Part shown: piece by piece, positions 34,714-57,781 of the stretch
How positions within the stretch are numbered: position 1 is the stretch's first letter
How the letters are laid out: each line of letters opens with the position of its first letter
The notes under the pieces: model-generated
Told to the model about the DNA's origin: nothing
The model's database searches: none
What the model saw: only the letters and a program-made list of their open reading frames with translations
Program-made: the position numbers and the translations under genes
Origin: Cyanophora paradoxa CCMP329
Taxonomy: Eukaryota; Plantae; Glaucophyta
NCBI GenBank assembly: GCA_004431415.1
Contig: QPMI01000039.1
Coordinates: 248,001-312,000, forward strand
Length of the DNA: 64,000 bases
Direction of reading: 5' to 3'

Positions 34714-34742
34714 AAACGTAACAAAACCTTTTTAAATCTTTT

Positions 34743-34919: not shown

Positions 34920-34958
34920 TCATAGGATTTAAAAGAAATCCGACAAGTAGTTATAACG

Positions 34959-36281: not shown

Positions 36282-36330
36282 CTCTGATGATTCGTTTTAT
36301 TATAAGAGTTAAGACGTCTTTAAATGCTTT

Positions 36331-36672
36331 TTAAGAACAGGTTACACATTGTGATATTCTACGTTTTGCTAATTTGTCTTGGAGACGCTCCCTTATAGAA
36401 CCTGTGACTGTTTTATGATTCTTTGAGTTATCTGCATCAAATGATAAAAGCATTGTTTGGAAATGGTCTTTTAACAATTGGTTTCTTGATGGATTACATA
36501 ATTTGGTGTTACCATAAGCGATTTGGGTAAATTCTTTACAGAAGTCTTCGAATTTATCCATACATCTGTTTTCTGGATTCTCAAAAAACCGCATAGAAAA
36601 ATGAATAGCTTCATGCTCTCTGATAGTAAAGAATCGCTTCATTATCAAATGTTCTTTCGTATCTATTAACAA
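36331..36672 (-). CDS. Hypothetical protein (mirror of 32999)
   Basis: Identical translation. Confidence 0.68.
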   Translation of the reverse strand: MLIDTKEHLIMKRFFTIREHEAIHFSMRFFENPENRCMDKFEDFCKEFTQIAYGNTKLCNPSRNQLLKDHFQTMLLSFDADNSKNHKTVTGSIRERLQDKLAKRRISQCVTCS

Positions 36673-36705
36673 TGTGTTATATATGTTTTTTTCTTGTAAA
36701 GCGTG

Positions 36706-36957
36706 TTAGATTCTTTGAATTTTGACCTTAACACCTTTTGGCACCTGAATAGTGATACTTTCTGATGGTTCGACCTTTGATGATTCTACACGTCGCTTTT
36801 TCTTGAATAAATCCGGGTAAGTTCTCTCATAGTATTCTTGAATTCCTTGTAAGTCCATTTTGCGAGCAAGAGGTTTAATTTCTTCCGGAAGGTCTTTAAT
36901 GAGATATTCACCCATGTCGATGCGTTCGGGGAGTTTGCAAGTCATCTTAATTGTCAA
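36706..36957 (-). CDS. Hypothetical protein (mirror of 32714)
   Basis: Identical translation. Confidence 0.6.
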   Translation of the reverse strand: MTIKMTCKLPERIDMGEYLIKDLPEEIKPLARKMDLQGIQEYYERTYPDLFKKKRRVESSKVEPSESITIQVPKGVKVKIQRI

Positions 36958-37449
36958 ATGAATATATCACCACAACCTTATATGTATTTAACATGTCATT
37001 TTTTTCAGATTTTACGATGTCTTACCTACATTTTAATAACGGCGACAATGAGAAAAATAAGAAACAAATGATAATTATGTATATATAAGAAGGTTACAGA
37101 GGTTACGAATGAAAAAAGAAAGGTTACCTTAAAAAATACAAAAAAGAGACCATAAACTCTATCAGGATACGAAAGTCACGAGGTTACGCATGTTTTATAC
37201 CTTCACCTAAAAAAAGACCCCCCCAGGAGTTCTCTCAGAAAGAATTTGAAAAGTTAAGTAACCGCAACTCACGCCAGCTGATAATACAGAGATTAGGGAT
37301 TTCCACACTGAAAAAGGTAAGAGAGAAACGGGAACGCAAAGCAACCACTAAATGTAACTCGCATTTGATCGTAGTAACCTTCAATTAAGAACCAATCTTA
37401 TGGTTCATAATGATAAAAAAGATATGAATAGTATATTTTCCAAACGGTT

Positions 37450-40440: not shown

Positions 40441-40505
40441 TTTAATGATTTGCCTTAGGTTATAAAAAAGAGAAAGTAAAGCGTCATTTTTTCACCTCTT
40501 ATTGA

Positions 40506-40934
40506 TCAATTCGCTACGATGTTTTCCAATGATACATCTGGATTATAAGCATTGTATTTACGGGGTCTCCCGTTCTTCTTCTCTGTCTGTTGCTTATTAG
40601 AAACATTTCCATTGCGTTTCCGTTCCCGATAGTTACGTGTCAACTCTTTCCTTTTGTTTCTAAACTCTTCATCCTCCGCATATCGACGCTGTCTATACAA
40701 AGCCATCTTTTCCAAAACTTCCGGCGGATTAATCGTTTCCTCACCATTTGCAAGTCTCTGTTGTTTCATCTCCTGATACTTAATACGCTTCCTCTCCGCA
40801 TCTTTTGCTCTTCTAATTCTTGCCTTTTCTTCCCGTTCTTCCTCTGTTAATGTCGTTTTCTTTTCAACCTGTGGGACAGGTTCGCCTTTCTGAATAGCGA
40901 TAAGCTCTTGGTTTGATTTCCGAGTATTCACCAT
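40506..40934 (-). CDS. RKSNQ-family basic protein (mirror of 28738)
   Basis: Identical translation. Confidence 0.7.
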   Translation of the reverse strand: MVNTRKSNQELIAIQKGEPVPQVEKKTTLTEEEREEKARIRRAKDAERKRIKYQEMKQQRLANGEETINPPEVLEKMALYRQRRYAEDEEFRNKRKELTRNYRERKRNGNVSNKQQTEKKNGRPRKYNAYNPDVSLENIVAN

Positions 40935-41088
40935 TATTCCTCTATAAATGGGAGAGATTAAATTCCTTTCACTTATCTTACTTCCCAAATCCTTATATAC
41001 TTTATGGATGTTTGGAAAGCGTCAATTTTTGGACATCATTCATCAAACATGTAACAAAAATTGTAACGTGTAACTATAAAATTGTAAC

Positions 41089-41370
41089 ATGGATGAAGAC
41101 GAATACATTGAAATTGTTATGGACGAAACTCCTGAGTATCAATATACCATGTCAGATGTGGAAGCATATTTAATGGATAGTTACAGGGTATGTTATGACA
41201 GTGATTATACACCTTCTGATTACATCCATGCTGAAATACAAGACCTTGTAGACTTTCCAATTTCAAAAACAGCGGTCGGAATTATGATTAAGCGCATTTT
41301 TGGGATTAAATCCCATGTTGTGAGACTTGGTGGAGTTCTGAAAAGAGTGTTTTATATCGTAAAATCCTAA
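41089..41370 (+). CDS. Stand-alone winged-helix protein (mirror of 28302)
   Basis: Identical; preceded by four TGTAAC repeats. Confidence 0.68.
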   Translation: MDEDEYIEIVMDETPEYQYTMSDVEAYLMDSYRVCYDSDYTPSDYIHAEIQDLVDFPISKTAVGIMIKRIFGIKSHVVRLGGVLKRVFYIVKS

Positions 41371-41410
41371 GGGAATAAAAGAAATTGTAACAAAGAGTAG
41401 CACAGCCAAA

Positions 41411-41946
41411 ATGAATCTAACCGAAATATTGAGTTTTATAGAATCGATTTCGCCATATCCCGTAGTCAATGCAACAGATAAGATGAATGATAAGAATTAT
41501 ACGAAATTTCTAACGAAAGCAAACAAGAAACAGATTATATACTTGATTCAACAGAACCGAAAGAATAAAGGTGTATTCGATGCATGGAAAGCAAGGGCAG
41601 GATACAATGCTCTTCAACCTATTCGTTTTGCATTCTCATATAAACAACGCTACATGTTGGTCCATATCTTGATATTGAGAACACCAAATGGTTCGTAGAT
41701 ATCATTATTAAGTCATTCACAAGAGATAACTTTGAAAGTCCGAATGAAACATGTCCTATCTGTCTTGAAAAGATTGACACTAACATTAATAATAAAGCGT
41801 GTATCGTTTGCAATACTCGTTATTGTCCTAATTGTTACTTCTCTTTACTTGAATCACATGAATCATTTAAGTGTTCAGTTTGTAGAACTAAACTACTTTT
41901 TGATGGAATAGAAGCATCAGACCCTAAGTCATATGCAAATGAATAA
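41411..41946 (+). CDS. RING-finger protein (mirror copy, 1-bp frameshift at ~41662)
   Basis: CC versus CCC relative to the left-arm copies. Confidence 0.75.
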
Positions 41947-42323
41947 AAGAGAACAGTTGGATTATTGAAGAAGGTTACAGATGTTACGAATGAAAAAAGA
42001 AAAGTTACCTTAAAAAATACAAAAAAGAGACCATAAACTCTATCAGGATACGAAAGTCACGAGGTTACGCATGTTTTATACCTTCACCTATAAAAAAGAC
42101 CCCAGGAGTTCTCTCAGAAAGAATTTGAAAAGTTAGGTAACCGCAACTCGCAGTAACAAAATAGCAGAGTTTTTGATTGTTTCAACTCTGAAAATGGTCT
42201 TATCAACCAAAAACCCTTAAAGTAACCCATCATTCAACCATCAGTAACCTGTTATTGAAAGGCAGGTTTAAAAAAGAGAAGTAATACAGTAATTCACGTA
42301 ATTATTGTTTTTTGGAAATAATC

Positions 42324-42644
42324 CTAAATTAAACCGAGAAGATAACTTAGAACTATCGCCTCGTTTCGCTTGTCAATCTTCTTTCTTAGTTTCAACTGTA
42401 AGCGGTTACCGCTATGTCTAACATCGTGGTCAAAACTCTCAAATGTTTTTGTCATTGAGGAGATAGCTTTCTCTTCAAGTATACGTTTTAATTTAGACGG
42501 TATCTGACTTGGTTTATATCCTTCACACCTTGCTCGTGCTTCAAATGTTTTCTTCAATATCTCATCTCGTTTTTCTGAGTAAAGGTCTGTAAAATCAACA
42601 CCCAATTCGTGAAGGTGAGCAGAGAAATTTGCACACGCCGTCAT
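42324..42644 (-). CDS. Hypothetical protein (mirror of 22264)
   Basis: Identical translation. Confidence 0.65.
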   Translation of the reverse strand: MTACANFSAHLHELGVDFTDLYSEKRDEILKKTFEARARCEGYKPSQIPSKLKRILEEKAISSMTKTFESFDHDVRHSGNRLQLKLRKKIDKRNEAIVLSYLLGLI

Positions 42645-42752
42645 TGAATCCTACCTCTCCTGTAACGCGTCATTTTTAAGTCTTTTTTCTTTCTGCTACA
42701 CGCTTTTCACACACCATGAAGACAAAAAAACATGGAATACAAAAACGAACTT

Positions 42753-43076
42753 TTAGTTTTCTTCATTAACACATTTAGTGCTTCTCTTATTTTTCTGATA
42801 TTCTCGTGATCTCTCACGAACTCGAATGCGAAACTCTTCGTCTTCCCAGTATCGTTGCATTTGGTATCGGCTACTATTTGCGATTCTATTCGGAGGCGTG
42901 ATAGTTGGCTCGCCATCTTCGATTCGTTTTTGTTTGACCTTTTCGTTATATTTGCGATTATATTCTCTATGCTTTTCACGTCTCAAAAGGAGTATTTCAG
43001 GTGTCACCTTGCAAGGCATAATATAAACTTCACCTCTCTGTTCCGCCATCAATTGCTGATTCGATTTACGAGGCAT
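42753..43076 (-). CDS. RKSNQ-family basic protein (mirror of 21832)
   Basis: Identical translation. Confidence 0.7.
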   Translation of the reverse strand: MPRKSNQQLMAEQRGEVYIMPCKVTPEILLLRREKHREYNRKYNEKVKQKRIEDGEPTITPPNRIANSSRYQMQRYWEDEEFRIRVRERSREYQKNKRSTKCVNEEN

Positions 43077-43180
43077 TGTAGTTTCACTTTCATATATATA
43101 TACGTTTCATCCTTAAATCTATAAGATACTTCTACGATGATTTAAGAAGAAAGCGACATTGATTATAAAAGAATCATAAT

Positions 43181-43486
43181 ATGAATATTCTGTATATCGG
43201 ATCAACACCTGAGTTGGTTGATTACAAGACATACAAGATCGGGTTATCATCAACCGATTCAGTAAATGATGTTATTAATAAGCAATCATCGAAGGCGTTT
43301 TCAATCTATGGGTGGTTCAAATGTAGCAACCCACGTTTAGTAAAGAAGCATCTATGCGATCTTTATGAGCATGAAGGCGATTTCTTTATTTTTGAGTCAT
43401 TGGAAGCCGCACGATCATGTATAGAACTCATTATAAAGACGTGGTTAAATGATCAATACGATAAAGAAGGGAATTTAATACTCTAA
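43181..43486 (+). CDS. Stand-alone T5orf172-like protein (mirror)
   Basis: Identical translation. Confidence 0.72.
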   Translation: MNILYIGSTPELVDYKTYKIGLSSTDSVNDVINKQSSKAFSIYGWFKCSNPRLVKKHLCDLYEHEGDFFIFESLEAARSCIELIIKTWLNDQYDKEGNLIL

Positions 43487-43575
43487 AAAGAGACACTGTG
43501 AAGTGTGTTTGAGATCATTTCCCAAAGAAAACCACTTAAAGATAAGACAAGTCACATATATAAGTAAGCGACATA

Positions 43576-44652
43576 ATGGCGATTTACATTGGATCAGTTC
43601 CGGAATTTCAAGCGATTAATAAGTATAAAATTGGTGTCTCAACTGTTTCGGTAAGTAATCTCATTTCTCAATACTCACGAGCTTTACCCAACTTTTCCAT
43701 TTATGAGTGGATCTATTGTAGCAATCCGCGCTTAATCGAGAAGTTATGTAAGAAAGAGTTCGAGAGTTTTGAAGGCGAATACTATAAATTGGATTCGTTG
43801 CGATCAGCAAAAGGGAGAATTCGTCAATTGATCAAACAGCATCTGAATGAGGGAACTGATGAGGAGGATATCAACTGGAATGAGATTATAGATGAATACC
43901 TCGAAAACAACTATGTTTTAACCGGAGATTCGAGCAAATACACTCCTCAATATATGCTACTTGATGATGTTTTCGCAATGTTAAAGGAAACAAAGAAAAT
44001 GAATAATCTCGATGAGTCCGATATTCTCTATCGAGTTCGTCAAGTATTCAATGGCTTAAATCCAACTTCTCAGATGTTTTACGATGAGATGCTCTATGTT
44101 TTCAAAGGTCTCGTTAAATCACAAGGAGATATCACAGTTGAAGATGATGAACCAACAGGTGATGATAGCTCAAAGTTCAAAACCTTGTTTGATTTCACAT
44201 GGGATTCTCGGGATGTTTTAACATCGAGAGAGGTTATTGAGTATTGCAGAGATCGTGGTTTGGTTATGTCCTCTAACCAGATTAAAAGCATTATGATGTC
44301 GTTAGGTGCTACTTATACGAGAAACGCTGTAAGGAAGGGAAAAACAAGAACTTACGAGCGTGGTTATTCAAAAGTTAAATTTCGTTTAGATAGAGACACC
44401 GAAACAATCGTGTGTGATTTTATCAACAAACGATACACATTGTCAGGAAAACCAGATGATAAACTTTATTGTCATGAAGTTTTCAATGATTGGCTGAATT
44501 ACATTAAGAATGATCACCTAAGCGACCATGTCGAAAAACGGGATATCGCATATTTGATCAGGAAGATTTTCAAGATTGAGTTAATTAAAAGACAGTATCA
44601 AGGCGAAACTATCACAGAATTTCTCGGTTTAATGAAAAAAAGCCACAAATAG
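43576..44652 (+). CDS. T5orf172 domain plus three winged-helix-like repeats (mirror)
   Basis: Intact 358-aa ORF. Confidence 0.78.
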   Translation: MAIYIGSVPEFQAINKYKIGVSTVSVSNLISQYSRALPNFSIYEWIYCSNPRLIEKLCKKEFESFEGEYYKLDSLRSAKGRIRQLIKQHLNEGTDEEDINWNEIIDEYLENNYVLTGDSSKYTPQYMLLDDVFAMLKETKKMNNLDESDILYRVRQVFNGLNPTSQMFYDEMLYVFKGLVKSQGDITVEDDEPTGDDSSKFKTLFDFTWDSRDVLTSREVIEYCRDRGLVMSSNQIKSIMMSLGATYTRNAVRKGKTRTYERGYSKVKFRLDRDTETIVCDFINKRYTLSGKPDDKLYCHEVFNDWLNYIKNDHLSDHVEKRDIAYLIRKIFKIELIKRQYQGETITEFLGLMKKSHK

Positions 44653-45269
44653 ACAAATCATAATCAATGTGTTATTTTTCAAAAAACCCATTTTTGACAA
44701 ATCATGGTTTTGTAATGATTATTCGACCTCTAATTAAACTACAATAGAGAAAATCATACCATGTAATATATTGAAAATCTCATATACGATTCTCTGGATT
44801 CCACATTTTGAAGACGAGTATGATTAACAATAAAATAAATGAAGATATATAATTGTATTTATAAGAAGGTTACAGATGTTACGAATGAAAAAAATAAAAG
44901 TTACCTTAAAAAATACAAAAAAGAGACCATAAACTCTATCAGGATACGAAAGTCACGAGGTTACGCAAGTTTTATACCTTCACCTATAAAAAAGACCCCC
45001 CAGGGGTTCTCTCAGAAAGAATCTGAAAAGTAAAGTAACCTCAAATTGCAGTAACAAAATAGCAATAATCCACCTTTTTCAACTCTGGAAATGGTCTTAT
45101 CATCCAAAAACACTCAAAGTAACCCATCTTCAACCTTTTTGTAACCTTTATTTATCGGTATATACCCTATACAAATCTATGATCAAATATCGAGAACCCA
45201 AACCATTTCCATCATGCAATTCAAAAATGACAATATTTAAGACGTTCTGCATATCAATCTGTAAAAACG

Positions 45270-45773
45270 ATGAATAACCAGAGATCCGTAGATATCCTCT
45301 GTTCAAACATGGACTTACTACCAAATGCAGAAACAGTTTATGTGGATTATTTCGGAGACAATATAACAGATGAAGAGATTTCGATAATCTTTGGTGTCTA
45401 TAAGTGTCTTCATGAATATCAAGGAATAACTAAGGATATGCTACATAAATGCTTTCTTTCCAATAGACTCGATGAATTAATTCATAAACGTAATAAGTAT
45501 CGTCCATCAGGATATTACAAGATGTTCAAAGAAAAAGGATTAAAAATAGGAAATACTCATAGATCTGATCATCAAGATATTGACAATTTCGAGATTCTCG
45601 ACGATAGACACTGTATCACATGTGGTCATCCCGATTTCTTAACAAAGTATTATATCCAAAATGCACCACCTGACTGCTACGAATGCTTTGAGTTCCTATG
45701 TAAGAAATGCGCATACTATGACAAAACGAAGTCTTCATACATTCATCACAAATGCAAACCAAACAGTAAATAA
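45270..45773 (+). CDS. Zinc-finger protein (mirror of 19138)
   Basis: Identical translation. Confidence 0.7.
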   Translation: MNNQRSVDILCSNMDLLPNAETVYVDYFGDNITDEEISIIFGVYKCLHEYQGITKDMLHKCFLSNRLDELIHKRNKYRPSGYYKMFKEKGLKIGNTHRSDHQDIDNFEILDDRHCITCGHPDFLTKYYIQNAPPDCYECFEFLCKKCAYYDKTKSSYIHHKCKPNSK

Positions 45774-45839
45774 TATTAACCAATCAGTGGGTGGTGAATT
45801 TCTTCAAAACCTTCAAAACTACTTAAAGGGAAAACATCT

Positions 45840-46319
45840 ATGATAATAAAAAGACCAGAAATGGAGCCATTTGTGTATTACGGTGGATCAACCACAGAAC
45901 CGAAGGATTATTACGGTGTTTATGTCTTAGATATCGGAGATCCAGAGGAATACGCGCATAAGATCGAGCGATACGGTGCGAAATGGGCATACGATGTGAA
46001 ACATTATTATGTCGAGGATAAATACCATCGTCTCTTAAAAGAGTTTGCGACGATAGACCCTACGGTTTTCGAGCCGAATTATTACGACATCGTACGTCGT
46101 CGATACTTTGTTGGTGATATCAAACTGAGATTACCCGAATTCGAACAAAAACGTATTTTCTTGCAATCATCTTTACGGAAATACATGAAGAAGCAAGGCG
46201 CTAAATACGAGCCACGTTATCGAATGTGGTATGTCACAGATCACGAAAATGAATTATGCAAGATTTTTAAGACATTCTCAGAAGTTGAAATACGTAGACG
46301 TCGTAATATGAGACGGTAA
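45840..46319 (+). CDS. DUF5710-like repeat protein (mirror of 18592)
   Basis: Identical translation. Confidence 0.65.
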   Translation: MIIKRPEMEPFVYYGGSTTEPKDYYGVYVLDIGDPEEYAHKIERYGAKWAYDVKHYYVEDKYHRLLKEFATIDPTVFEPNYYDIVRRRYFVGDIKLRLPEFEQKRIFLQSSLRKYMKKQGAKYEPRYRMWYVTDHENELCKIFKTFSEVEIRRRRNMRR

Positions 46320-46329
46320 ATGGTGTGTC

Positions 46330-47706
46330 TCAATCGGACATAATGCAGCACAGATACAATTTTATAACAGTAAAAAACAGAATCCCATTTTATCAATTGT
46401 TTAATCGGACGCAATGCAACTCAGTGTCCCTTTTTCATTATTTTTATCACAGCAATCTCAACGATTATTTAATTGGACGTGATGCACCACAGATACAATT
46501 TTATAACAGTAAAAAACAGAATCCCATTTTATCAATTGTTTAATCGGACGCAATGCAACTCAGTGTCCCTTTTTCATTATTTTTATCACAGCAATCTCAA
46601 CGATTATTTAATTGGACGTGATGCACCACAGATACAATTTTATAACAGTAAAAAACAGAATCCCATTTTATCAATTGTTTAATTGGACGTAATGCACCAC
46701 AGATACAATTTTATAACAGTAAAAAACAGAATCCCATTTTATCAATTGTTTAATTGGACGTAATGCAACTCTGAGGTCATTTTTGATACAGTAAAAATCT
46801 CAACCATATCTCATCGATTGTTTAATTGGACAGAATGCAGTAACGATCTCTCCTACAAAACACACAGCAATCTCATCGATTGTTTAATTGGACAGAATGC
46901 AGTAACGATCTCTCCTACAAAATACACAGCAATCTCATCGATTGTTTAATTGGACATAATGCAGTAACGATCTCTCCTACAAAATACACAGCAATCTCAT
47001 CGATTGTTTAATTGGACATAATGCAGTAACGAGTGAATTATTTTCAACCGATATCTCAACGATTGTTTAATTGGACATAATGCAGTAACGATCTTTCCTA
47101 CAAAATACGCTGCAATCTCAACGATTGTTTAATTGGACGTGATGCAGTAACGATCTTTCCTACAAAATACGCTGCAATCTCATCGATTGTTTAATTGGAC
47201 ATAATGCAGTAACGATCTTTCCTACAAAATACGCTGCAATCTCAACGATTGTTTAATTGGACGTGATGCAGTAACGATCTTTCCTACAAAATACGCTGCA
47301 ATCTCATCGATTGTTTAATTGGACATAATGCAGTAACGATCTTTCCTACAAAATACGCTGCAATCTCAACGATTGTTTAATTGGACGTGATGCAGTAACG
47401 ATCTTTCCTACAAAATACGCTGCAATCTCATCGATTGTTTAATTGGACGTGATGCAGTAACGATCTTTCCTACAAAATACGCTGCAATCTCATCGATTGT
47501 TTAATTGGACGTGATGCAGTAACGATCTTTCCTACAAAATACGCTGCAATCTCAACGATTGTTTAATTGGACGTGATGCAGTAACGATCTTTCCTACAAA
47601 ATACGCTGCAATCTCATCGATTGTTTAATTGGACATAATGCAGTAACGATCTTTCCTACAAAATACGCAGCAATCTCAACGATTGTTTAATTGGACATAA
47701 TGCAAC
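46330..47706 (-). repeat. Mirror copy of the 62-bp subterminal array
   Basis: Reverse complement of 17205-18580, with the same order of unit variants. Confidence 0.95.
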
Positions 47707-47968
47707 TCTGTGTGAATTTTTGCGTTTTACGATAGAATGGGCGGTGGATTGCTTCAATCATGATTATATCGCAAAAATCATGTTCCTTCAATTGAGATTA
47801 TATCGAATGGGCGGTGGATTACTTCAATCGTGATTATATCACAAATTTATGTTCCTTCAATCGAGATTATATCGATTTTACATAAAATACATATTAATCG
47901 CGTTTATATCAATCGCAAAATACGTATTTTACATTTAAATACAAATTAATCGCGTTTATATCATTGAA

Positions 47969-49324
47969 TCAATTGAGAAATACGTAATTTATCAAAAATT
48001 TATATAGGACCGTATTTTCAAAAAGCCTCCCATCTTGGACATATCCTACGTTGGTCAGAATGCTGAAATTAAATAGGACTCCGGCAGCAAAGGCAGGTCC
48101 ATACATAATGATTTGATGCAGCTCAAAAGGCTTGGGAAACTCGACTTTAATCCAGGGATTAGGTAATGTTCCCCCCTGAAACCCTGTAGAGTTAGGTCGC
48201 ACATGAGAAGGTGGGTGCAATTCGTCAAAGTCATTGCTTGTGATATTGGAGTCCGGGATCATTAGCCAGTTGACATCAAATGGAGGCTCAACCGTTAATG
48301 TTGATGAGATTATGAGTCTCTCATCATTTAGAAGCGCATAGTTTGCCAATAGAAAGCTGCAGAGTGCATTTATTTTCGCACTTATCTCGGTTTGTTTCAG
48401 CCATAAATCAGTTGTGGAGATCAAATAAGAAATATTCGAAGGGGAGGCATCATCAAGCTTGCTCATTACTGAAGCTGGCAGTGGAACACTTAACCGCCAG
48501 TATCTAGTTAGACTTCTATCTGCATCAATGGGAAGCAGCTCCTGCATTTGAAAGTGCGATTCCAGCTCGCTCCCTGCCATTAGCATCGAAATAATCGGGC
48601 TGCCCGAGAGGGACAGAATCCAGCCTAGGGCACCCCAGCCCGATGTCTCAGCATTAGAAAACCCGGCCGTCAGCTGGTCGCTGGCTTGGACCTCACCACA
48701 GCTGATGCTCACAAGAACAATTGGATCTTCTGCATCGTAAATTTTACTTGCATGGCTGAGTGCTGCAACCGAGGGGTTATTTAAACAGGCGATGGCCCCA
48801 TCAACAAGGTTCTTGTCTCCTAGCACCTTCGGTGGAAAGAATGTAGGTGCTGCAGAAGATGCTCTAACTGCATCACGAATCAGGGTGCTTGAGTATGGCC
48901 CATCCTTAGTGAAAACTACGGGCTGCATCCGAACTGTATCAAATGCTGTGATTAATATGTCTTTGGTCGATTCTGCAATTGTGTAGTCTAGGGCAACGTC
49001 TGTGAGCACCGACTCCAGAGGGTTTGCATCATAGCGGCTGCCTGAGAGCAAGCTTGTCAGTGATCTTGGATTTGCAAATATTGTTGGCAGGTTCGTTTGA
49101 TATAGACTCAAGATATCACCTGCAGAATATCGGTAGGCGAGAACAGAGCCTGGAGTTGATGGGATAGCCAAACCGGCCGCTATTATTGCCCCTGTCGAGG
49201 TGCCTGCAAAGAAATCAAACAGCTGTGGAATTGCTTTCCCAGTAATCGCCTCGATCCGTTGCAGAATTCTGGCAATAATTATACCACGAGCACCTCCACC
49301 TGATAACGAGAGAATCACCTTCAT
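47969..49324 (-). CDS. Patatin-like phospholipase with C-terminal discoidin(F5/8)-like domain, 3'-truncated by the AT-rich element
   Basis: SGGGARG, GTSTG, ASSAAPTFF, LVDGA; PWIKVEFPKPFELHQI; residues coded below 48007 derive from the insert; likely start MKVIL at 49324. Confidence 0.88.
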   Translation of the reverse strand: MKVILSLSGGGARGIIIARILQRIEAITGKAIPQLFDFFAGTSTGAIIAAGLAIPSTPGSVLAYRYSAGDILSLYQTNLPTIFANPRSLTSLLSGSRYDANPLESVLTDVALDYTIAESTKDILITAFDTVRMQPVVFTKDGPYSSTLIRDAVRASSAAPTFFPPKVLGDKNLVDGAIACLNNPSVAALSHASKIYDAEDPIVLVSISCGEVQASDQLTAGFSNAETSGWGALGWILSLSGSPIISMLMAGSELESHFQMQELLPIDADRSLTRYWRLSVPLPASVMSKLDDASPSNISYLISTTDLWLKQTEISAKINALCSFLLANYALLNDERLIISSTLTVEPPFDVNWLMIPDSNITSNDFDELHPPSHVRPNSTGFQGGTLPNPWIKVEFPKPFELHQIIMYGPAFAAGVLFNFSILTNVGYVQDGRLFENTVLYKFLINYVFLN

Positions 49325-49348
49325 TTTTAAAAGGGGGCTTATATAAAA

Positions 49349-52300
49349 ATGTCCTACATCTTGAAGAAGCCAGTGCCACTTCGTAAAGCTCCAGATCTCG
49401 TGGATGATCGACATATAAATATTCGCGTTTTCGGAAGCATCTTGGCTGACTACAATGCTGATCGTGACATACACCAGACCGAGTTTAATCGCCCAGCTGC
49501 GTTAATTCTGCGCAATTCACACGTCGGTGCCCCAAATATCGCACAGAGATTTTGTCTGGGTCCAGCTGAGAACTATGTTGCTGAAATAGTCGGATCCAGG
49601 GCTTTACCGCGTCACCTACGCATTGCCTCCTCAGGCACAGTTTCCAAGTATGATTCTGGTAGATTAATATTTAGGCTTCAAAATGATAGAGGGGTCCACA
49701 CATCAGCTCTACGCCTTATTGATGAATCCAATGCCATCACGAACAAGACAGCTGCTCAAATTACAGGGCGAATCCTCCTTGGTGAAGACGCAGGGATATC
49801 AGTGCTATCATCGCAAATCCAACCATTTCCCTGGGATTTACTTTATACAGCTGCACGAGAAACAAATATTTTATACGGATTTGATGTTAATCAAATTGAT
49901 ACAGAGCCTGCTACCAGGTTAGATATTCCTGGATGCACCTTGGGCTCTATTCTCATAGAGGCTGACAGACACCTGCTCCCGGCATTGCATGATAGATATG
50001 ACCTAGGGCTTCGCACCAGACAGTGGCGAAATATTCATGGAACAAGTATTTACCAAGACGGCAAAAAAGTAATCACTGAACCGGAGATAATAAACATTTT
50101 CAACTACTACTTTGGACCTATTGTCCCTATACCACCTATACCACCTCTTCCAGGGCTACCAAAGCCGCCAACCCCGGATGGCCCAGGTCGAGAGCGAGTT
50201 GCCGATGAGACAATCCCATTTGGTCAAAATATTATATCATGGGAGGCTGTCAGGAATCGTCCAGTGATAGAACCCTATAAGCATCCACATGAGGAATACC
50301 TGCCGCCTGATATTGAAGTTTTCCCACTCGAAATGTACACAGAGCCTGAAGAGCAGTTACTTCCTGATGGCTTAGATGTTCAAGAACTCGAGTACGAGCA
50401 GCCTGTGATTCCCCATGAGCAGCTGCTTCCAGACGGCTTTGATCCTATTTTCTTCCCCTTGGAGTTCACAGTGGACTGGGAATCTATTAACAACAAACCT
50501 GAGCATTTTCCACCGGAAGATCACAGACATAACTGGGATGAAATCGATAATAAACCGTTGCAATTTCCACCAGAAGATCATAGACACGACTGGGATGATA
50601 TCGATAATAAACCGCTTAAATTTCCACCAGAGGACCATAGACACGACTGGGGTGACCTTGATAATGTACCGCTTGAATTTCCACCTGAGGATCACAGACA
50701 CGTTTGGAGTGAGATCGATGAGCAACCCGAGTTCGCAAAGTCAGAGCTTCCTGTCACACTTGCTGTCTCTCTATACAAATCAATCAACACCCCTGAAAGG
50801 TTATATTTGAATGAACACTATGTCCACAGGCAGGGAATTCGTGCCAACACTGACATGTCAGGCTCTTTGTTTGTACGGATTCCCCGCGGAATGGAGATAG
50901 TTGCTGCAGGTGGAAATATTGGCTTGCAGGACACGTTCCCAAGTATTTATGTCACAAACTACTACGCCTCTGACATCGAAATGACATCTGTTCTACCTCC
51001 TTTGCCTTCACTGCCGTTGGATCCTCTCTCCCATGCTGATTTTCATTCTGCAATCCAAATTAATGTAACAGATGTTAGCGATTTAGATTCATCGAGACCG
51101 AAATTGGTATTTAGCCGTGAACGCCTTTTACCCAATGCTCTGATAGGAAACCGAGACGATTATAAGAAATGTGAAATAGCATGGATAAAGACGAATTATA
51201 ATGGTGGAGTTGGCGAGGGTGTTTTAGAAATAAATCAGAGGGCAGCAGCAAAGAACATTCACAACGAGACTATATCCAGAGTGGTCACAGAGGATTTCCT
51301 TCAAGCCCAAAACTATGTAGATGAAACAGAGCTCGCTTTAGTTATTGCAGGTCTAGCTGTGACTGGGAATTACCTGCCCTTGACAGGAGGAACTATTGAT
51401 GGAACAGTGACTGCTGACAACTTTTTTGTTCACACTGAAAGTGATCAAACCTTCCCTGTGGTTCACCCAGGAGCTGAGTACGAGATTCCTATTGATCCAG
51501 CTATTATGCCCATTAAGATTGACCTACCTTCTGATTATGTAGGAAGGGGTGAACTGAAAACCATTTCGTTCACAGGTGACTATAATGATCTCATTAATAA
51601 ACCCACCGCAGGAAATCTACATCCTGTTGCATTTTCGGGGAGTTTCCTCGATCTGAATAATCGAGCACACACCCACACAAAGGCAGAGATCACAGATTTT
51701 GCACACACTCACACAAAATCCCAGATCACAGATTTTGCACACACCCATACAAGGGCAGAAATAACGAATTTCGCTCACACCCATTTTAAATCCGAGATCT
51801 CAGATTTTGCACACACTCATGTAAAGAGTGAGATAACAGACTTTGCACACACTCACACAAAGGCAGACATTACAGATTTCGCACACACTCATGATTGGAA
51901 TACAGATATCTATAACAAACCCGCTATATTCTCAGGTAACTACAATGATTTGACAAATAAACCTACCCTTGATCCCTTTACAGCTACCACTATCAGAGCC
52001 AATAATACAATGTATGTAGGATCAGGTCAGATTGTAGAACCAGCAGGACCTATGTTTGAAGAAACATGGTTCTTCCACAATTCCCAAAATTACTTTGATA
52101 AAACCTTACTTGTTCGTGGAAATGCCTATGCAAGAAATTTCTATGCTATGAACCCTTCCAATACTGCTACTATCAGTAGATGTATCACAGAAGCGGATCT
52201 TTCCAGTCAACTCAATGCATTTTTTAATGGGAAAATTCAAGCAGGAAAGTACGTTTACACTACTCCCGTTTTAGATTACAATAATCTATATGTGTTCAAT

Positions 52301-52525
52301 CTAACTATCTATTTTACCAATGCCTTTGCTTCTCCTCCTGTTGTGACAGCAACAGCAAGGCATGAAGGACAAGATCCAAATTATCAAGCAACTCCCGTCG
52401 TTTTTACTGTGAACCTGTTGAATGTTTACAGTAACTATTTCACGTGTGAACTTTTCACTGATCCATATGCAATGATTAATTCATCCAAAACTGTTACAAT
52501 TCATTATATTGCTGTCGCAATTTAA
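49349..52525 (+). CDS. Large fibre/tail-like virion protein with HxH repeats
   Basis: NKPxxFPPEDHRHDWDxID x4, AHTHTKAEITDF x~7, FSGxYNDLxNKP, YLPLTGGT; beta-rich C-terminal head (FTNAFASPPVVTAT). Confidence 0.8.
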   Translation: MSYILKKPVPLRKAPDLVDDRHINIRVFGSILADYNADRDIHQTEFNRPAALILRNSHVGAPNIAQRFCLGPAENYVAEIVGSRALPRHLRIASSGTVSKYDSGRLIFRLQNDRGVHTSALRLIDESNAITNKTAAQITGRILLGEDAGISVLSSQIQPFPWDLLYTAARETNILYGFDVNQIDTEPATRLDIPGCTLGSILIEADRHLLPALHDRYDLGLRTRQWRNIHGTSIYQDGKKVITEPEIINIFNYYFGPIVPIPPIPPLPGLPKPPTPDGPGRERVADETIPFGQNIISWEAVRNRPVIEPYKHPHEEYLPPDIEVFPLEMYTEPEEQLLPDGLDVQELEYEQPVIPHEQLLPDGFDPIFFPLEFTVDWESINNKPEHFPPEDHRHNWDEIDNKPLQFPPEDHRHDWDDIDNKPLKFPPEDHRHDWGDLDNVPLEFPPEDHRHVWSEIDEQPEFAKSELPVTLAVSLYKSINTPERLYLNEHYVHRQGIRANTDMSGSLFVRIPRGMEIVAAGGNIGLQDTFPSIYVTNYYASDIEMTSVLPPLPSLPLDPLSHADFHSAIQINVTDVSDLDSSRPKLVFSRERLLPNALIGNRDDYKKCEIAWIKTNYNGGVGEGVLEINQRAAAKNIHNETISRVVTEDFLQAQNYVDETELALVIAGLAVTGNYLPLTGGTIDGTVTADNFFVHTESDQTFPVVHPGAEYEIPIDPAIMPIKIDLPSDYVGRGELKTISFTGDYNDLINKPTAGNLHPVAFSGSFLDLNNRAHTHTKAEITDFAHTHTKSQITDFAHTHTRAEITNFAHTHFKSEISDFAHTHVKSEITDFAHTHTKADITDFAHTHDWNTDIYNKPAIFSGNYNDLTNKPTLDPFTATTIRANNTMYVGSGQIVEPAGPMFEETWFFHNSQNYFDKTLLVRGNAYARNFYAMNPSNTATISRCITEADLSSQLNAFFNGKIQAGKYVYTTPVLDYNNLYVFNLTIYFTNAFASPPVVTATARHEGQDPNYQATPVVFTVNLLNVYSNYFTCELFTDPYAMINSSKTVTIHYIAVAI

Positions 52526-52544
52526 CTATTTAGTAATTATAAAG

Positions 52545-53594
52545 ATGACCTCTCTATCAGAAATCCCAAACTATGAACTCGCAGCGAAATCACTCCATAG
52601 CACCTCTCATGAAGTAGTCGACTCTACACCCGGGAATATATGCACTGAGACTACAAGCAATACCTCTTTCACAGAGAATAATATACTCAGAGTCAAAGAA
52701 ATTCGATGTGATCGCAATGGAGGCAAGATAAGAACCACAGGCATTATTATCTCGAATAAAAACCAAGTTCAAGCAGGTCAGGTAGTCCCTGATTCAGCAA
52801 TCTATGATAATGTGGGTGGATTCACCACGGCACAGATAGTTAGTTTTTGGAACACAAGCAATACTGCAGCTCTTGTAGTCAGAAGTGGAGGTGCTTACTT
52901 TGGAGAGGCATTTAAGGTGAATGGAACAGTAACAGCACCCATACTAAATGCTGGAAGTGGAACTTTTGAGAGTCCAATAACTTTTCAGGGTGGATTTAAT
53001 GCGAGTAGTCTTTCAGTTGGCGTTGGTGTCTTCTCCACAAAGTTAAACACACCTGAAATTGAAACAACAGCTGCACTGAATTTAAAGAGAAATGCAGTGG
53101 TTACAGCAACCGTTAACAATGTTTCCCCGTCCATTAATCTACTTAAATATCTGAAAGTTCCACACCCTCGTTTTTGTGTTGTTGCTTATTCAACATCAGG
53201 ATTTAATGTTGGAGCAACAGTAGCAACAAGGAAATTCACTTATAATAGAGTTCTTGTAGATGCAAGCAATAGTGTCAGCAACGCAGGCAATTTTACAGCA
53301 CCTGTTTCAGGAATTTATAGATTCTTCTTTATGGTTCAAATGTCAACAACATCATCCACAGGGGAGTGTAGAATTTGTTTTCAAAAGAATGATTTGTTTA
53401 TTTCCCCCCAATCTGTTCAAGTATTTTCAACTTTCAATGGAAAGCGAAGTGTTCACATGGAGGCTTCTTTTCCTGTATATACAAACGAATATGTGAATGT
53501 CATACATATCTGGTCATCGTACATCTTTGTTGAACCGGCGGGGACAATTGGTGGTACTACCTGTTTCGGGGGGCATCTCATCAGTAGATTATAA
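52545..53594 (+). CDS. Fibre-like protein with C-terminal C1q domain
   Basis: PRFCV...GNFTAPVSGIYRFFF...FGGHLI; N-terminal domain shared with the next paralogues. Confidence 0.8.
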   Translation: MTSLSEIPNYELAAKSLHSTSHEVVDSTPGNICTETTSNTSFTENNILRVKEIRCDRNGGKIRTTGIIISNKNQVQAGQVVPDSAIYDNVGGFTTAQIVSFWNTSNTAALVVRSGGAYFGEAFKVNGTVTAPILNAGSGTFESPITFQGGFNASSLSVGVGVFSTKLNTPEIETTAALNLKRNAVVTATVNNVSPSINLLKYLKVPHPRFCVVAYSTSGFNVGATVATRKFTYNRVLVDASNSVSNAGNFTAPVSGIYRFFFMVQMSTTSSTGECRICFQKNDLFISPQSVQVFSTFNGKRSVHMEASFPVYTNEYVNVIHIWSSYIFVEPAGTIGGTTCFGGHLISRL

Positions 53595-53616
53595 ACTTTT
53601 TGTAGGGGTTTTATAG

Positions 53617-54639
53617 ATGGCTACCCAAATCGCAGTTCCTGTTTTCTGTTATGCAGCGCCTAAATTGCATCAACTGAACCACACAGTCACAGATGCTATT
53701 CCCGGGTTTATTTGCACAGAAACCACAGGTGCAGATTCGTTTACTCAAAATTCGATTATCAGATGCAAGGAAATTCGATGTGATAGAAATGCTGGAAAAA
53801 TAAGAACCACTCAATTAATCGTGAGTAACAAGAATCAGGTTTTAACAGGTGGTGTAGTTGCTGATACAGCAATTTATGATGATGCAGGAGGGGTGACCAC
53901 ACCACAAATTGTTACTTTTGATGGGACAGAAAATAATGCAGCACTTGTAGTTAAATCAGGTGGAGCATGGATAGGTTCGGGAGCTTTTGTGAATGGGACA
54001 CTCTCAGCAACAAACGTTTCAATTTCAGGAGCAACTACATTTACAGGTGTTGTGAATGCAAATGGTGGTCTTTCTGTTCCTACTAATACTGTCCCTGTAA
54101 TGACCGCAACCACAAAGATACAAACACCTGAAATAGATACAGGAGCAAATGTGGATCTGATTCTGAAACGAAATAGCACAGAAGTTGCACGAATTGATGC
54201 AGGAGGTCTCACAATTGCAGCAAACTTTTATTTGAAGCAAGCAACCCAACCTCGATTCTGTGTTGGGTTCGGTTTAGCAACAAGAAATGCAGTCTTTGGA
54301 CGTCTTACGAATTGGTTGCATGAATTCTTTGATAATACCAACTCATTCGATGTAGTAGAAGGGAAATTCACAGCACCTGTTTACGGAGATTACAGATTCT
54401 CTCTGACTGCTTATAGTATTACTACATCAACTGTGAGTGTAGATCTGAAAGTAAATGATGCAAATGTTTCAACAGAATACAATTTTAGGGTAAATAACTC
54501 TCAGACTGTAATCAACAAAACAATCAATTTGAGCGCAATAGTAAGACTTGGAGCAGGCGATAATGTTTCTATTCATGCTAATCATACTTATCTTTCGGAA
54601 TTCACAACATTTAGTGGTGAATTGCTGAGTATAATTTAA
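53617..54639 (+). CDS. Fibre-like protein with C-terminal C1q domain (paralogue 2)
   Basis: FDVVEGKFTAPVYGDYRFSL...LGAGDNVSI...FSGELL. Confidence 0.82.
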   Translation: MATQIAVPVFCYAAPKLHQLNHTVTDAIPGFICTETTGADSFTQNSIIRCKEIRCDRNAGKIRTTQLIVSNKNQVLTGGVVADTAIYDDAGGVTTPQIVTFDGTENNAALVVKSGGAWIGSGAFVNGTLSATNVSISGATTFTGVVNANGGLSVPTNTVPVMTATTKIQTPEIDTGANVDLILKRNSTEVARIDAGGLTIAANFYLKQATQPRFCVGFGLATRNAVFGRLTNWLHEFFDNTNSFDVVEGKFTAPVYGDYRFSLTAYSITTSTVSVDLKVNDANVSTEYNFRVNNSQTVINKTINLSAIVRLGAGDNVSIHANHTYLSEFTTFSGELLSII

Positions 54640-54659
54640 TTATCTACAAGTATTATAGG

Positions 54660-54923
54660 ATGTCGAATATTTACCAAGTGGTTCTTTCAGATACTGAAAA
54701 TCTCGCAATGGAATATTGCGCTTTATCTGTTCAAGATTGGATTGATAATGCTGTTCACAACAGGGCGAGAATTGCAATTGATGAAATTGTTCAGAAAGAG
54801 ATTCAATCTTGCATCTCATCAGGAGTTCAGATACCAACCACAAAGGAAGCAATTGTTCTACAGGCTTTCCAAAGGGGAACTGTCAAAAAAGGTATCGAGT
54901 ATAACAATGTCACAGAAGAGTAG
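54660..54923 (+). CDS. Small phage-like tail-fibre-associated protein
   Basis: LSDTENLAMEY...DWIDNAVHNRARIAIDEIV resembles small proteins found beside fibre genes in aquatic bacteriophages (recalled, not searched). Confidence 0.6.
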   Translation: MSNIYQVVLSDTENLAMEYCALSVQDWIDNAVHNRARIAIDEIVQKEIQSCISSGVQIPTTKEAIVLQAFQRGTVKKGIEYNNVTEE

Positions 54924-55153
54924 CGGAGCTTGATAGCACTCTCTCCATAATTTCAAAAATAAATAATGAATAAATATTAGTTGTGTATATATCATGCATA
55001 TATACAGCATCTCTGTTATTCGGTGTTACTCATAGACGACCATTTCTGATGTGTATATATACGACATATATACAATATTATTAATTATTTTTTTAAAATT
55101 GTATTTATTTTCTGTCTGCAACCTTGTTTATTTTTCTCTCGTGTTTCTATTAA

Positions 55154-56002
55154 ATGACCGAGTACAATCGGGTCCAGCTGCCTATCTACTCGCTGGGCTC
55201 CCCAGCCATCCATATGAGGCAGCATGAAGTTAGCGATGCTATTGCTGGATTAGAGTCCACTGAGCGTCCAAACTCAACTAATGCGTTTGATCAGCGATCA
55301 GTGATTCGCTGTAAAGAATTGCGCGCAGATAAAAACTCTGGGGTTGTAAAAACAACACGATTATTAGTTACTAACGCGAATTTCTCCCAGCCCATAACAG
55401 GGGGAGTTGATTCGTACAGTGTTGACCTCCGAAGCATAAACTATGATCAAAACACTGCTGCCCTCACTGTGCGCTCTGGGGGAGCAGCTATTTTAGGAGG
55501 CTGCCGAGTTAGTGGGGGCCTATCATCATCGATTGCCATCAATGATGTCCCAGACTTTTCAGTAGAGAATGTCGAAAATCGTAAACGAGTTCGCATGTAT
55601 GTACCTTGCTGTGACCTTCCCTATGCACAAGCTCTAGTAGAAGTTGAAATAACCATAGCTAATTCAAGTACACCAAATGGTCTGGATGGTGAGAGGTTGC
55701 TTTCAAACAGAGAAATCCCTAAAGCATTACAATCTCTCTGTCAGGATCAAAATGACCAGATAGGGCATGTGTATACGTTCTTTGTGCAAGGTCTTGGACA
55801 TGCTGGGCGGGGATACGTAGTTCGTAATATTAATACAAGGCACCTTTTCGATTTATATGCTACTGCAATAGGCCGATACTCTATCCTAATCATCGGCTAT
55901 CGCTCCGATGTGGCTGCATCAGTGGCTACTAGAGGGCTGAACGTTGATCCAGCACTGAATAATATGTATGAGGAAGGCAATCCGGAAAATCCTATACCTT
56001 AA
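55154..56002 (+). CDS. Fibre-family paralogue 3 (shared N-terminal domain, non-C1q head)
   Basis: HEVSDAIAGLESTE..IRCKELRADKNSGVVKTT..VRSGGA. Confidence 0.75.
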   Translation: MTEYNRVQLPIYSLGSPAIHMRQHEVSDAIAGLESTERPNSTNAFDQRSVIRCKELRADKNSGVVKTTRLLVTNANFSQPITGGVDSYSVDLRSINYDQNTAALTVRSGGAAILGGCRVSGGLSSSIAINDVPDFSVENVENRKRVRMYVPCCDLPYAQALVEVEITIANSSTPNGLDGERLLSNREIPKALQSLCQDQNDQIGHVYTFFVQGLGHAGRGYVVRNINTRHLFDLYATAIGRYSILIIGYRSDVAASVATRGLNVDPALNNMYEEGNPENPIP

Positions 56003-56030
56003 ATGAAAGTTTTATCTTCTGTTTTCTAAA

Positions 56031-56864
56031 ATGGAAGCTGTTGAAAGAATAGTAGTTCCATCGTTGACCCTCGCCGCTCCAGCCAACCACGTCCTGCAGC
56101 ATGCAGTTTCAGATGATGTGCCCGGCCTAGAGTCCACAGAGCAGCAGCCAACTCTAAACACCTTCCGGGAGAATCACATATTACGTTTAGGCGAGGTTCG
56201 ATGCGACAAAAATAATGGGACAATAAAAACAACAAGTCTCCTTGTAACCAATGCAAACTTTAATTCAAATTATGGGGATCCTGATAGCTATGACGATGCT
56301 AATAAGGTCAATACTTTTACCTTTGAATCAAGAACAGGTGCCGTCACCTGCAGGTCCGGAGGTGCTTATATTGGAGATGGCCTGAGAGTGGGCGGAGCTG
56401 CTTGTGCCCCTATATTTGTTAATGATCAACCAAACCCTGAGAATATGAATGAGAGAATTCGAACCTATGTGCCTTCTATGAATTCGCCTTACATTATTAA
56501 ACTTTTCACGCTAAACATAAATGAGCAAACATCAATCGTAGATAACGTTCAGCCACTCGGAAACCATTTCAAGAGTGTTGTTGATATTCCCCCGGATATC
56601 TACTTCCTTTGTAGGAGAAATGATGCTCTCCGGCCAAACATAGCTGTTTTAATTAATCCTATTGACAATTTTGGTGTCGCTTTCCATTCTACTCCAGTGG
56701 GGGTTGAAGATTACCAGTTTATTGTGAGGGCTACGCTAATGGGCGCCTACAAAATCATTCTATTTGCCGAAAGAACAGATGTGATTGCAAATGGTGTCAA
56801 GTACGGGGAGACCTTCAATTCAAATCGTTATTTCCCGATTGGAGGGGCTGATCCCAACCCATAG
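56031..56864 (+). CDS. Fibre-family paralogue 4
   Basis: HAVSDDVPGLESTE..EVRCDKNNGTIKTT..CRSGGA; C-terminal half related to paralogue 3. Confidence 0.75.
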   Translation: MEAVERIVVPSLTLAAPANHVLQHAVSDDVPGLESTEQQPTLNTFRENHILRLGEVRCDKNNGTIKTTSLLVTNANFNSNYGDPDSYDDANKVNTFTFESRTGAVTCRSGGAYIGDGLRVGGAACAPIFVNDQPNPENMNERIRTYVPSMNSPYIIKLFTLNINEQTSIVDNVQPLGNHFKSVVDIPPDIYFLCRRNDALRPNIAVLINPIDNFGVAFHSTPVGVEDYQFIVRATLMGAYKIILFAERTDVIANGVKYGETFNSNRYFPIGGADPNP

Positions 56865-56895
56865 AATCTTTGTTTTTATATATAGCCCATACTAG

Positions 56896-57240
56896 ATGGA
56901 TTTGCTCCGTAAATGCATGGAGATGTTCCATCTCAACGTCACCAGCAAATTGAAATGCAGCTGCTGCGAGACAACTATTAACCTCGAAATATCTGACACT
57001 GAGGGGTCGCGCACCCCTGATACTCAGCTATCGCCTAATAACACACCCGGGACTTCAAGGTCCAATTCTCCTTTTACACGATCTGACTCACCTGTACCAT
57101 GGCTTGATTCTGATAACCGAAGATCGTCTTGGCCACCCCCAAATATCCCAAAGCCCCTGAAAAGAAAGAAGTCCCTGCTATCAAGTTTCAGAAAGGAGAA
57201 GACTCCAGTTTCGGAAAAGCAACCAGATCAAGTGGAATGA
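56896..57240 (+). CDS. Small Ser/Pro-rich protein; stop codon overlaps the TIR edge
   Basis: 114 aa; CSCC; upstream TATATA. Confidence 0.55.
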   Translation: MDLLRKCMEMFHLNVTSKLKCSCCETTINLEISDTEGSRTPDTQLSPNNTPGTSRSNSPFTRSDSPVPWLDSDNRRSSWPPPNIPKPLKRKKSLLSSFRKEKTPVSEKQPDQVE

Positions 57241-57781
57241 GGCCGCACCAGACCGCTCTGGGGGCCCCTACCGCTTGGGAGGTTGCCCCTGGTCGCAGAC
57301 AAGCAGCGACGCTGCGCCAAGCGCCTAGATAGAGCTCGCCCCCGCGCTGTGTCTCACGTTCGCTCCAGACTGTAAACACGCCCAGCTAGTGCTGAACCCG
57401 TTTCCTCAGTTAGCTTCGCTGTACACATCATTATCGCCTAGCTAGCGCTGAACGTGTTTCCTCAGTTAGCTTCTCTGTACACATTAATATCGTCTAGCCT
57501 ATTCTGTCCCGTTGCTCTGCAGACCGCGCTCAAGGGGGGCCGCGCTCCTCTTCGTCTCTTCTACTTGATAGCACTGTCTTGAATAGACATGAGCTATTGC
57601 TAGGCTTTGACCTAGGGAAAAGGCCGGCAGACGTAACAAGAGAGCGGGGTAGACGTAACGAGAGAGCGGGGTTGAAGGGAGAGTGGGGTGGACGCTAGGG
57701 CTGGTGCAGTAAGCGAGGGGGTGAGGGGATGGGGGTGGTGGAGAGGGGTGGGCCACCGCGGTGGGCTCTCTCTCATTTTTT
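57239..57781 (-). repeat. Right terminal inverted repeat of the Polinton (543 bp)
   Basis: Mirror of 1142-1682, ends GGGCTCTCTCTCATTTTTT, followed by the TSD CGTATT. Confidence 0.96.

What the first reader, a model, noticed from the sequence alone, without database searches (positions are those of the whole stretch)
47990..48020. Asymmetric integration: precise hairpin end, ragged far end, target deletion and no TSD
Seen: the right arm stops ~200 bp short of the hairpin (it matches only to 16905). The convergent Polinton genes on both sides (penton 2 and patatin) both lack their 3' ends, so target DNA was lost. Inference: one-ended strand transfer (reminiscent of rolling-circle/HUH chemistry) or break capture finished by end-joining. 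The T5orf172 GIY-YIG-like proteins are the only nuclease candidates encoded.
Basis: partly seen in the sequence, partly recalled or inferred. Interest (0 to 1): 0.7.

Follow-up and report, generated by a model that had tools for sequence, protein, structure and literature searches.

The report
Hairpin-ended palindromic element, one end lost
A 27-kb mirror-image mobile element, whose family ends precisely in a hairpin and shows no integrase or capsid gene, sits inside a Polinton; this copy has lost one end and nearby DNA, likely by accident rather than through a special one-ended way of inserting.

Summary
The low-GC insert (16702-48006) starts exactly at a perfect 28-bp hairpin stem. Its right arm lacks the last 203 bp, both flanking Polinton genes lack their native stops, and there is no TSD. 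All lost DNA lies on one side, so one event explains all three signs. Public contigs show arm-spacer-arm is the native form: the spacer is identical, with arms at about 1.6-2 times its depth in 4 of 4 runs. Contigs cross the 'ragged' point unbroken, and subterminal depth is 0.92-1.03 of total arm depth in 3 of 4 runs (0.51 in one). A second, divergent member at 62737 and a variant in the runs also begin at ACACAT with compensated stems. No HUH protein was found, and the host Polinton carries an rve integrase. Best reading (0.6): a two-ended, hairpin-primed primase-helicase element whose right end failed or was deleted in this copy. The family itself (12.9-kb arms, no integrase or capsid found) is a new variant of mobile AEP-SF3 modules. 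TSDs of other copies could not be tested.

The parts
16702..48006 (.). Inserted low-GC palindromic element (GC 0.365 vs 0.63-0.65 in host flanks); 26,742 bp if both ends were whole and without the tandem duplication
16702..16786 (+). Terminal hairpin, perfect 28-bp stem starting ACACAT, GC-rich loop; intact left end
16787..16904 (+). 91% AT subterminal segment, absent from the right arm
17207..18579 (+). 62-bp and 139-bp subterminal tandem arrays (mirrored at 46332-47704)
19631..29156 (+). 4,763-bp tandem duplication in the left arm only (real or assembly; untested)
34370..35301 (.). 932-bp unique central spacer with two small ORFs; native in 4 of 4 runs
35302..48006 (-). Right arm, 12,705 bp, 203 bp short of the hairpin
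37450..40389 (-). AEP/PriCT-2/D5-type SF3 primase-helicase, 979 aa (mirror copy 29185-32222 has single-base indels)
43576..44652 (+). T5orf172/MUG113 GIY-YIG-like domain plus C-terminal part weakly like the primase C-terminus; best nickase candidate
43181..43486 (+). Second T5orf172-like ORF; lacks the helix Glu (E55 of ORF 43576), possibly inactive
48006..48007 (.). Right junction (arm | patatin-like gene); microhomology unknown; not checked against reads
16035..16701 (+). Polinton gene ('penton 2', label unverified) cut after codon 222
48007..49414 (-). Polinton patatin-like gene without its own stop
1142..57781 (.). Host Polinton: 543-bp TIRs, 6-bp TSD CGTATT (1136-1141, 57782-57787), pPolB, A32 ATPase
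8719..9648 (+). Polinton rve integrase
   Evidence: (11 of 15 aligned proteins hit rve)
62737..64000 (+). Left end of a second, divergent family member in host DNA: perfect 28-bp stem starting ACACATAAAGA, AT-rich subterminal segment, shared GATATAATC repeats; runs off the window

Best explanation
The insert is a two-armed, hairpin-ended primase-helicase element of a family whose ends start precisely at ACACAT, and this copy lacks 203 bp of its right end plus the adjoining Polinton DNA, most likely through a single one-sided accident rather than a programmed one-ended integration. Shown: arm-spacer-arm form, three compensated stems starting at ACACAT, one-sided loss, and no integrase-, capsid- or HUH-sized gene. 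Inferred: the element likely replicates as a linear molecule whose terminal palindrome folds back to prime synthesis, helped by its AEP-SF3 protein. A nick at a fixed distance from the loop (ORF 43576 the candidate) would regenerate exact extended ends. Those ends would normally both be joined to the target, most likely by an rve integrase supplied in trans. Here the left end was joined exactly. The right end either failed and was finished by host end-joining, or was deleted with its flank soon afterwards; the data do not separate these two, about even odds.
For: Native two-arm form: a 992-bp spacer contig (932+30+30) with 0 differences in 3 of 4 runs (two pieces in X4), arm/spacer depth 1.59-1.96; a second subfamily shows 2.3-2.75. 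Single contigs cross 16905 unbroken in X11 (16757-17018), X4 (16850-17018) and X2 (16778-16936). Subterminal/total-arm depth is 1.03, 0.92 and 0.92 in X1, X2 and X11; subterminal/adjacent-interior depth is 1.01-1.55 in 4 of 4. Stem B differs from stem A at 7 of 28 pairs and both are perfect. The run variant differs at 7 of its outer 18 bases, its two loose ends are complementary, and its contig starts at the same base in 3 of 4 runs. Of 9 substitutions between the arms, 8 lie within 650 bp of the spacer, so the two-arm form predates this insertion. The copy has other damage: a 4.76-kb duplication and a retro-type insert in the capsid-like gene. Precedent: one normal and one truncated end with host repair in retroviral integration (PMC5041404, passages); adjacent deletions erase TSDs of bacterial IS (PMC11708052, abstract); palindromic ends beside TSDs in virophages/PLVs with non-pPolB replicases (bioRxiv 2026.07.28.741278, section 7).
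Against: No other copy's two flanks were seen, so TSDs are untested. Contig depth is not copy number, by the tool's own warning, and other subfamilies could pad the subterminal depth. X4 gives 0.51, as a one-ended model predicts, though its adjacent interior is equally low. The 4 runs have similar ratios and may be one strain. The window's allele of ORF 16035 differs from all contigs at 16040, 16079 and 16508, and no bridging contig at 16701/16702 was among the rows shown (24 of 66 loose ends, 32 of 918 pieces), so this very insertion may be absent from those runs. The element's end (ACACATAAAG) does not resemble this Polinton's end (AAAAAATGAG), so the helper integrase is unidentified. The arms are near-identical, so a later deletion must have been quick.
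Confidence: 0.6

Rival explanations
1. Routine break capture: the element is a linear hairpin-ended replicon with no integration enzyme. Its exact extended ends (made by terminal resolution) are ligated into double-strand breaks by host end-joining, perhaps at breaks made by its own T5orf172 nuclease. Target loss and missing TSDs would then be normal, and end loss occasional.
For: No integrase-sized gene in an intact arm plus spacer. The termini are unlike the Polinton's. Mobile AEP-SF3 modules without integration genes, often near endonucleases, are proposed to copy into breaks (bioRxiv 2026.10.13.758929, section 13).
Against: Three of three hairpin ends seen are exact to the base (two window junctions, one contig start), which is tidier than end-joining usually gives (own knowledge). 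About 9-10 of every 10-11 arms appear to reach the subterminal segment in 3 of 4 runs.
Confidence: 0.22
2. Programmed one-ended transfer: a nickase joins one hairpin end exactly, synthesis runs on rolling-circle-like, and the far end is always ragged.
For: This copy fits the picture. X4 depth ratio is 0.51. A nickase plus SF3 helicase standing in for HUH has been floated (PMC11296320, passages).
Against: No HUH protein: one chance HxH in a 106-aa ORF among 15 scanned. No break or halving at 16905 in 4 of 4 runs; ratio 0.92-1.03 in 3 of 4. The element has two equal arms, unlike Helitrons. GIY-YIG enzymes hydrolyse DNA and form no phosphotyrosine link (own knowledge).
Confidence: 0.1
3. The right junction is an assembly error in a giant palindrome.
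For: Homopolymer indels show an error-prone assembly (an extra base at 15423 in 4 of 4 runs). The right junction was not checked against reads.
Against: The Polinton TIRs and a 6-bp TSD close properly around the whole. The centre is confirmed by contigs. The junction is clean, with no duplicated or low-complexity filler.
Confidence: 0.08

Closest known systems
Mobile AEP-SF3 replicase modules / 'insertion sequences' in Polisuviricotina (bioRxiv 10.64898/2026.10.13.758929; passages and section 13 read, figures and supplements not seen)
   Same: AEP-SF3 replicase bracketed by its own repeats inside a Polinton-like genome, without an integration gene, near endonuclease genes
   Different: Here the arms are 12.9 kb and make up about 96% of the element, duplicating nearly every gene. 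It is multicopy, also inserts in host DNA, and has conserved 28-bp hairpin ends. The word 'hairpin' does not occur in that text.
Palindrome-ended virophages and PLV subtype 4 of Halocafeteria (bioRxiv 10.64898/2026.07.28.741278; passages and section 7 read)
   Same: Terminal palindromes in TIRs, non-pPolB replicase, nesting inside PLVs, proposed hairpin priming
   Different: Those carry capsid genes, rve integrases and TSDs; none of the three was found here
Transpovirons (PMC3671162, passages)
   Same: Capsid-less linear elements with few genes and Zn-finger/small genes of the giant-virus gene pool
   Different: SF1 helicase and 6-8 genes there; an AEP-SF3 primase-helicase, about 16 ORFs per arm plus spacer and giant arms here; no giant-virus association shown
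Helitrons / IS91 rolling-circle transposons (PMC4778049, passages)
   Same: No TSD at this site; a hairpin at an end
   Different: No HUH RepHel protein, symmetrical arms, and the hairpin is the terminus itself
Aberrant half-site retroviral integration (PMC5041404, passages)
   Same: One normal end and one truncated end finished by host enzymes
   Different: The integrase would have to act in trans here; not shown

Membership tests
Helitron/IS91-type rolling-circle transposon | HUH Rep nuclease with catalytic Tyr | tested here: not met
   No Pfam/PHROG Rep hit, no frame large enough, one chance HxH motif
Helitron/IS91-type rolling-circle transposon | Asymmetric ends, no TIRs | tested here: not met
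   12.9-kb inverted arms, native in 4 of 4 runs
Helitron/IS91-type rolling-circle transposon | No TSD | tested here: inconclusive
   None at this site, but the right flank is deleted
Polinton/PLV/virophage (inner element) | Major capsid protein and packaging ATPase | tested here: not met
   Only frames over 250 aa are the primase-helicase and ORF 43576; no family hits
Polinton/PLV/virophage (inner element) | rve integrase or tyrosine recombinase | tested here: not met
   several ORFs of 79-167 aa remain unassigned
Transpoviron | Capsid-less linear element with TIRs | tested here: met
   a free linear form was not shown
Transpoviron | SF1 helicase | tested here: not met
   D5-type SF3 primase-helicase instead
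Transpoviron | Propagation with a giant virus | not testable with these tools
   -
Mobile AEP-SF3 module | AEP-SF3 fusion gene | tested here: met
   PriCT-2 and D5_N hits; conserved D102/D104/H163; homologues carry PF23162
Mobile AEP-SF3 module | Own flanking repeats, separate from the host virus TIRs, no integrase | tested here: met
Polinton (outer element) | pPolB, rve integrase, A32 ATPase, TIRs, 6-bp TSD | tested here: met
T5orf172/GIY-YIG nickase | Domain match with catalytic Tyr, Arg and Glu | tested here: inconclusive
   ORF 43576 matches and keeps Y4, Y17, K18, G20, R35 and E55; ORF 43181 lacks the Arg and Glu (residue roles recalled); activity not testable

The most novel reading that the evidence does not exclude
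An undescribed family of 27-kb palindromic, hairpin-ended primase-helicase elements that insert with base-exact ends using neither a DDE integrase, a recombinase nor an HUH protein. Their own GIY-YIG (T5orf172) nickase and AEP polymerase would both resolve the hairpin telomere and write the element into target DNA.
Probability: 0.2. Interest if true: 0.8.

Novelty: new variant of a known kind. Interest (0 to 1): 0.48.

Why it matters
The asymmetry itself is likely ordinary damage to one copy. The family is what matters. It has several copies and at least three end variants in one genome, a conserved hairpin terminus, and no integration enzyme found. That makes it a compact test case for two ideas so far only proposed in 2026 preprints: hairpin-primed replication of endogenous Polinton-like elements, and independent mobility of AEP-SF3 replicases. 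Tabulating its ends in the source assembly would show how an integrase-less replicon enters chromosomes.

Tried and rejected
No whole genome was held, so other copies' flanks could not be read. No close relative of the primase was found in viral or metagenome contigs. With an alignment, 79 loci at 24-30% identity were kept, many from giant-virus bins; none of the 79 matched any of the other 14 element ORFs. Hairpin patterns gave 0 hits in viral contigs; 15 of 15 metagenome hits were chance, with longest stems of 4-7 bp. No relative of ORF 16035 was found in viral contigs, and its lost continuation is not elsewhere in the window. A pairwise match of the two penton-like ORFs was not significant, so the deletion could not be sized. 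The patatin search gave only distant homologues covering at most about 72% of the query. The single-sequence fold of ORF 43576 was unusable (pLDDT 36.7). The Atlas was unreachable for ORF 45840 and ORF 16035. No RNA holder was listed. Earlier scan findings: nothing. I considered the right break as cleavage at a cruciform: it lies 3 bp past the apex of a perfect 16-bp AT palindrome, but three such palindromes lie in the first 520 bp, so this is not used. The idea that the whole palindrome is a fold-back artefact was rejected. Paper searches listed no paper that, in the titles and passages I saw, describes this family; subscription journals and bioRxiv supplements were not covered.

Full report
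Setting. The window holds a Polinton at 1142-57781 with 543-bp TIRs and a 6-bp TSD, CGTATT. It encodes pPolB with an EndoVII domain and an A32 ATPase. ORF 8719-9648 is an rve integrase: 11 of 15 aligned proteins hit rve, though the ORF itself does not, and its fold matches retroviral integrases at E 1e-11. Host flanks are 63-65% GC; a microbial eukaryote is my inference, not a tool result. Inside lies a 36.5% GC insert, 16702-48006.

Anatomy of the insert. It is a giant palindrome: two arms around a 932-bp spacer (34370-35301), with a 4,763-bp tandem duplication in the left arm only. A whole element would be 26,742 bp with 12.9-kb arms. Each arm encodes a 979-aa AEP/PriCT-2/D5 primase-helicase whose relatives are 21-34% identical, two T5orf172-like ORFs, RING proteins and small unknown ORFs. 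A six-frame stop-to-stop scan of one arm plus spacer found no other frame over 250 aa, so no capsid-, integrase- or RepHel-sized gene. Small unassigned ORFs remain.

The observation. The right arm ends at 48006, matching the left only to 16905, so 203 bp are missing. The left end starts at the first base of a perfect 28-bp stem. In 4 of 4 runs laid (4 of 24 listed), contigs of uninterrupted Polinton copies leave the window after 16701, so the junction is exact and ORF 16035 is cut. The patatin-like ORF reads 469 codons without a stop and ends in the arm; this side was not compared with uninterrupted copies, so the deletion size and any microhomology are unknown. No TSD was found. All lost DNA (the right hairpin, the rest of ORF 16035 and the patatin 3' end) lies right of the insertion point. 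One event therefore explains all three signs, and the missing TSD says nothing about how the element inserts.

Is asymmetry the family's habit? First, the two-arm form is native. A contig equal to the spacer plus 30 bp on each side, with 0 differences, occurs in X1, X2 and X11 (in two pieces in X4), and the adjoining arm contig is 1.59-1.96 times as deep. A related subfamily shows 2.3-2.75. Of 9 substitutions between the arms, 8 lie within 650 bp of the spacer, which suggests arms kept alike from the ends inward and older than this insertion (inference). Second, single contigs cross 16905 without a break in X11, X4 and X2. Third, the depth of the segment that the right arm lacks is 1.03, 0.92 and 0.92 of all arms counted at the centre in X1, X2 and X11. 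X4 gives 0.51, but its neighbouring interior is equally low (ratio 1.23), as AT bias would give. A one-ended rule predicts about 0.5 throughout. Caveats: contig depth is not copy number, other subfamilies may add to it, the runs may be one strain, and this insertion may be absent from them (window-only bases at 16040, 16079 and 16508; no bridging contig among the rows shown).

Precise ends are a family trait. Only two perfect stems of 16 bp or more with a short loop exist in the window. The second, at 62737-62807 in host DNA, is also 28 bp from ACACAT to the loop, shares the first 11 bases, and differs at 7 of 28 pairs, all compensated. It is followed by an AT-rich segment and the same GATATAATC repeats (0 of 100 shuffles give such matches). 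It runs off the window. A third stem variant appears as complementary loose ends in 3 of 4 runs, with its contig starting at the same base.

How it most likely works. Shown: exact, covarying hairpin ends; two arms; a primase-helicase; one credible GIY-YIG-like ORF (43576; ORF 43181 lacks the conserved Glu; residue roles recalled). Inferred: fold-back priming at the palindrome, and a nick at a fixed place that regenerates extended ends. Integration is normally two-ended, most likely by an rve integrase in trans, though the element's end does not resemble this Polinton's. In this copy the right end failed and was finished by end-joining, or was deleted soon after. I put this at 0.6, routine break capture without an integrase at 0.22, programmed one-ended transfer at 0.10 and an assembly error at 0.08.

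Comparison. One normal and one truncated end is known from aberrant retroviral integration (PMC5041404, passages). Adjacent deletions commonly erase TSDs of bacterial IS (PMC11708052, abstract). Palindromic ends next to TSDs occur in Halocafeteria virophages and PLVs with non-pPolB replicases (10.64898/2026.07.28.741278, passages and section 7). AEP-SF3 modules without integrases, bracketed by their own repeats inside Polinton-like genomes, are described in 10.64898/2026.10.13.758929 (passages and section 13); its figures and supplements, which I could not see, may hold similar elements. A T5orf172-helicase link and a nickase standing in for HUH are discussed in PMC11296320 (passages). Helitron features come from PMC4778049, transpovirons from PMC3671162, and the Polinton definition from PMC12747079 (passages). 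The element fails membership of Helitrons, PLVs and classical transpovirons, and fits mobile AEP-SF3 modules. In searches I saw no description of giant arms plus conserved hairpin ends in such a module.

Verdict. The rolling-circle inference is not supported; end-joining at this one junction is plausible. The element is a new variant of a known kind; interest 0.48.

Noticed in passing
window 62737-64000: Left end of a second, divergent hairpin-ended family member in GC-rich host DNA; an ORF starts near 63907 and runs off the window. Its far end is the best available TSD test.
   Followed up: partly
window 12482-14421: The capsid-like gene (label recalled, not verified) is split by a ~1.9-kb GC-rich insert with a poly(A) tract and a 15-bp TSD (12482-12496, 14407-14421), a non-LTR retro-type insertion.
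   Followed up: partly
window 33719-34167 vs 35504-35952: 8 of the 9 substitutions between the arms cluster next to the spacer, several changing the RING protein.
   Followed up: partly
window 34364-34373: The left arm/spacer border falls at the centre of a perfect 10-bp palindrome TTCCCGGGAA; it may mark how the inverted arm first arose by fold-back.
   Followed up: no
window 9607-9924 vs 40506-40934 and 42753-43076: A small basic Polinton ORF weakly resembles two element ORFs (28-31% identity, low-complexity).
   Followed up: no
window 34621 (run X4): One contig joins the spacer to GC-rich DNA: a fragment elsewhere or a chimera.
   Followed up: no
window 15423: An extra base in contigs of 4 of 4 runs suggests that the split of ORFs 15303-16007 and 15052-15375 is an assembly error.
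   Followed up: no
window 16701 and 62736: Both window junctions have C directly before ACACAT (2 of 2); too few to call a target preference.
   Followed up: no
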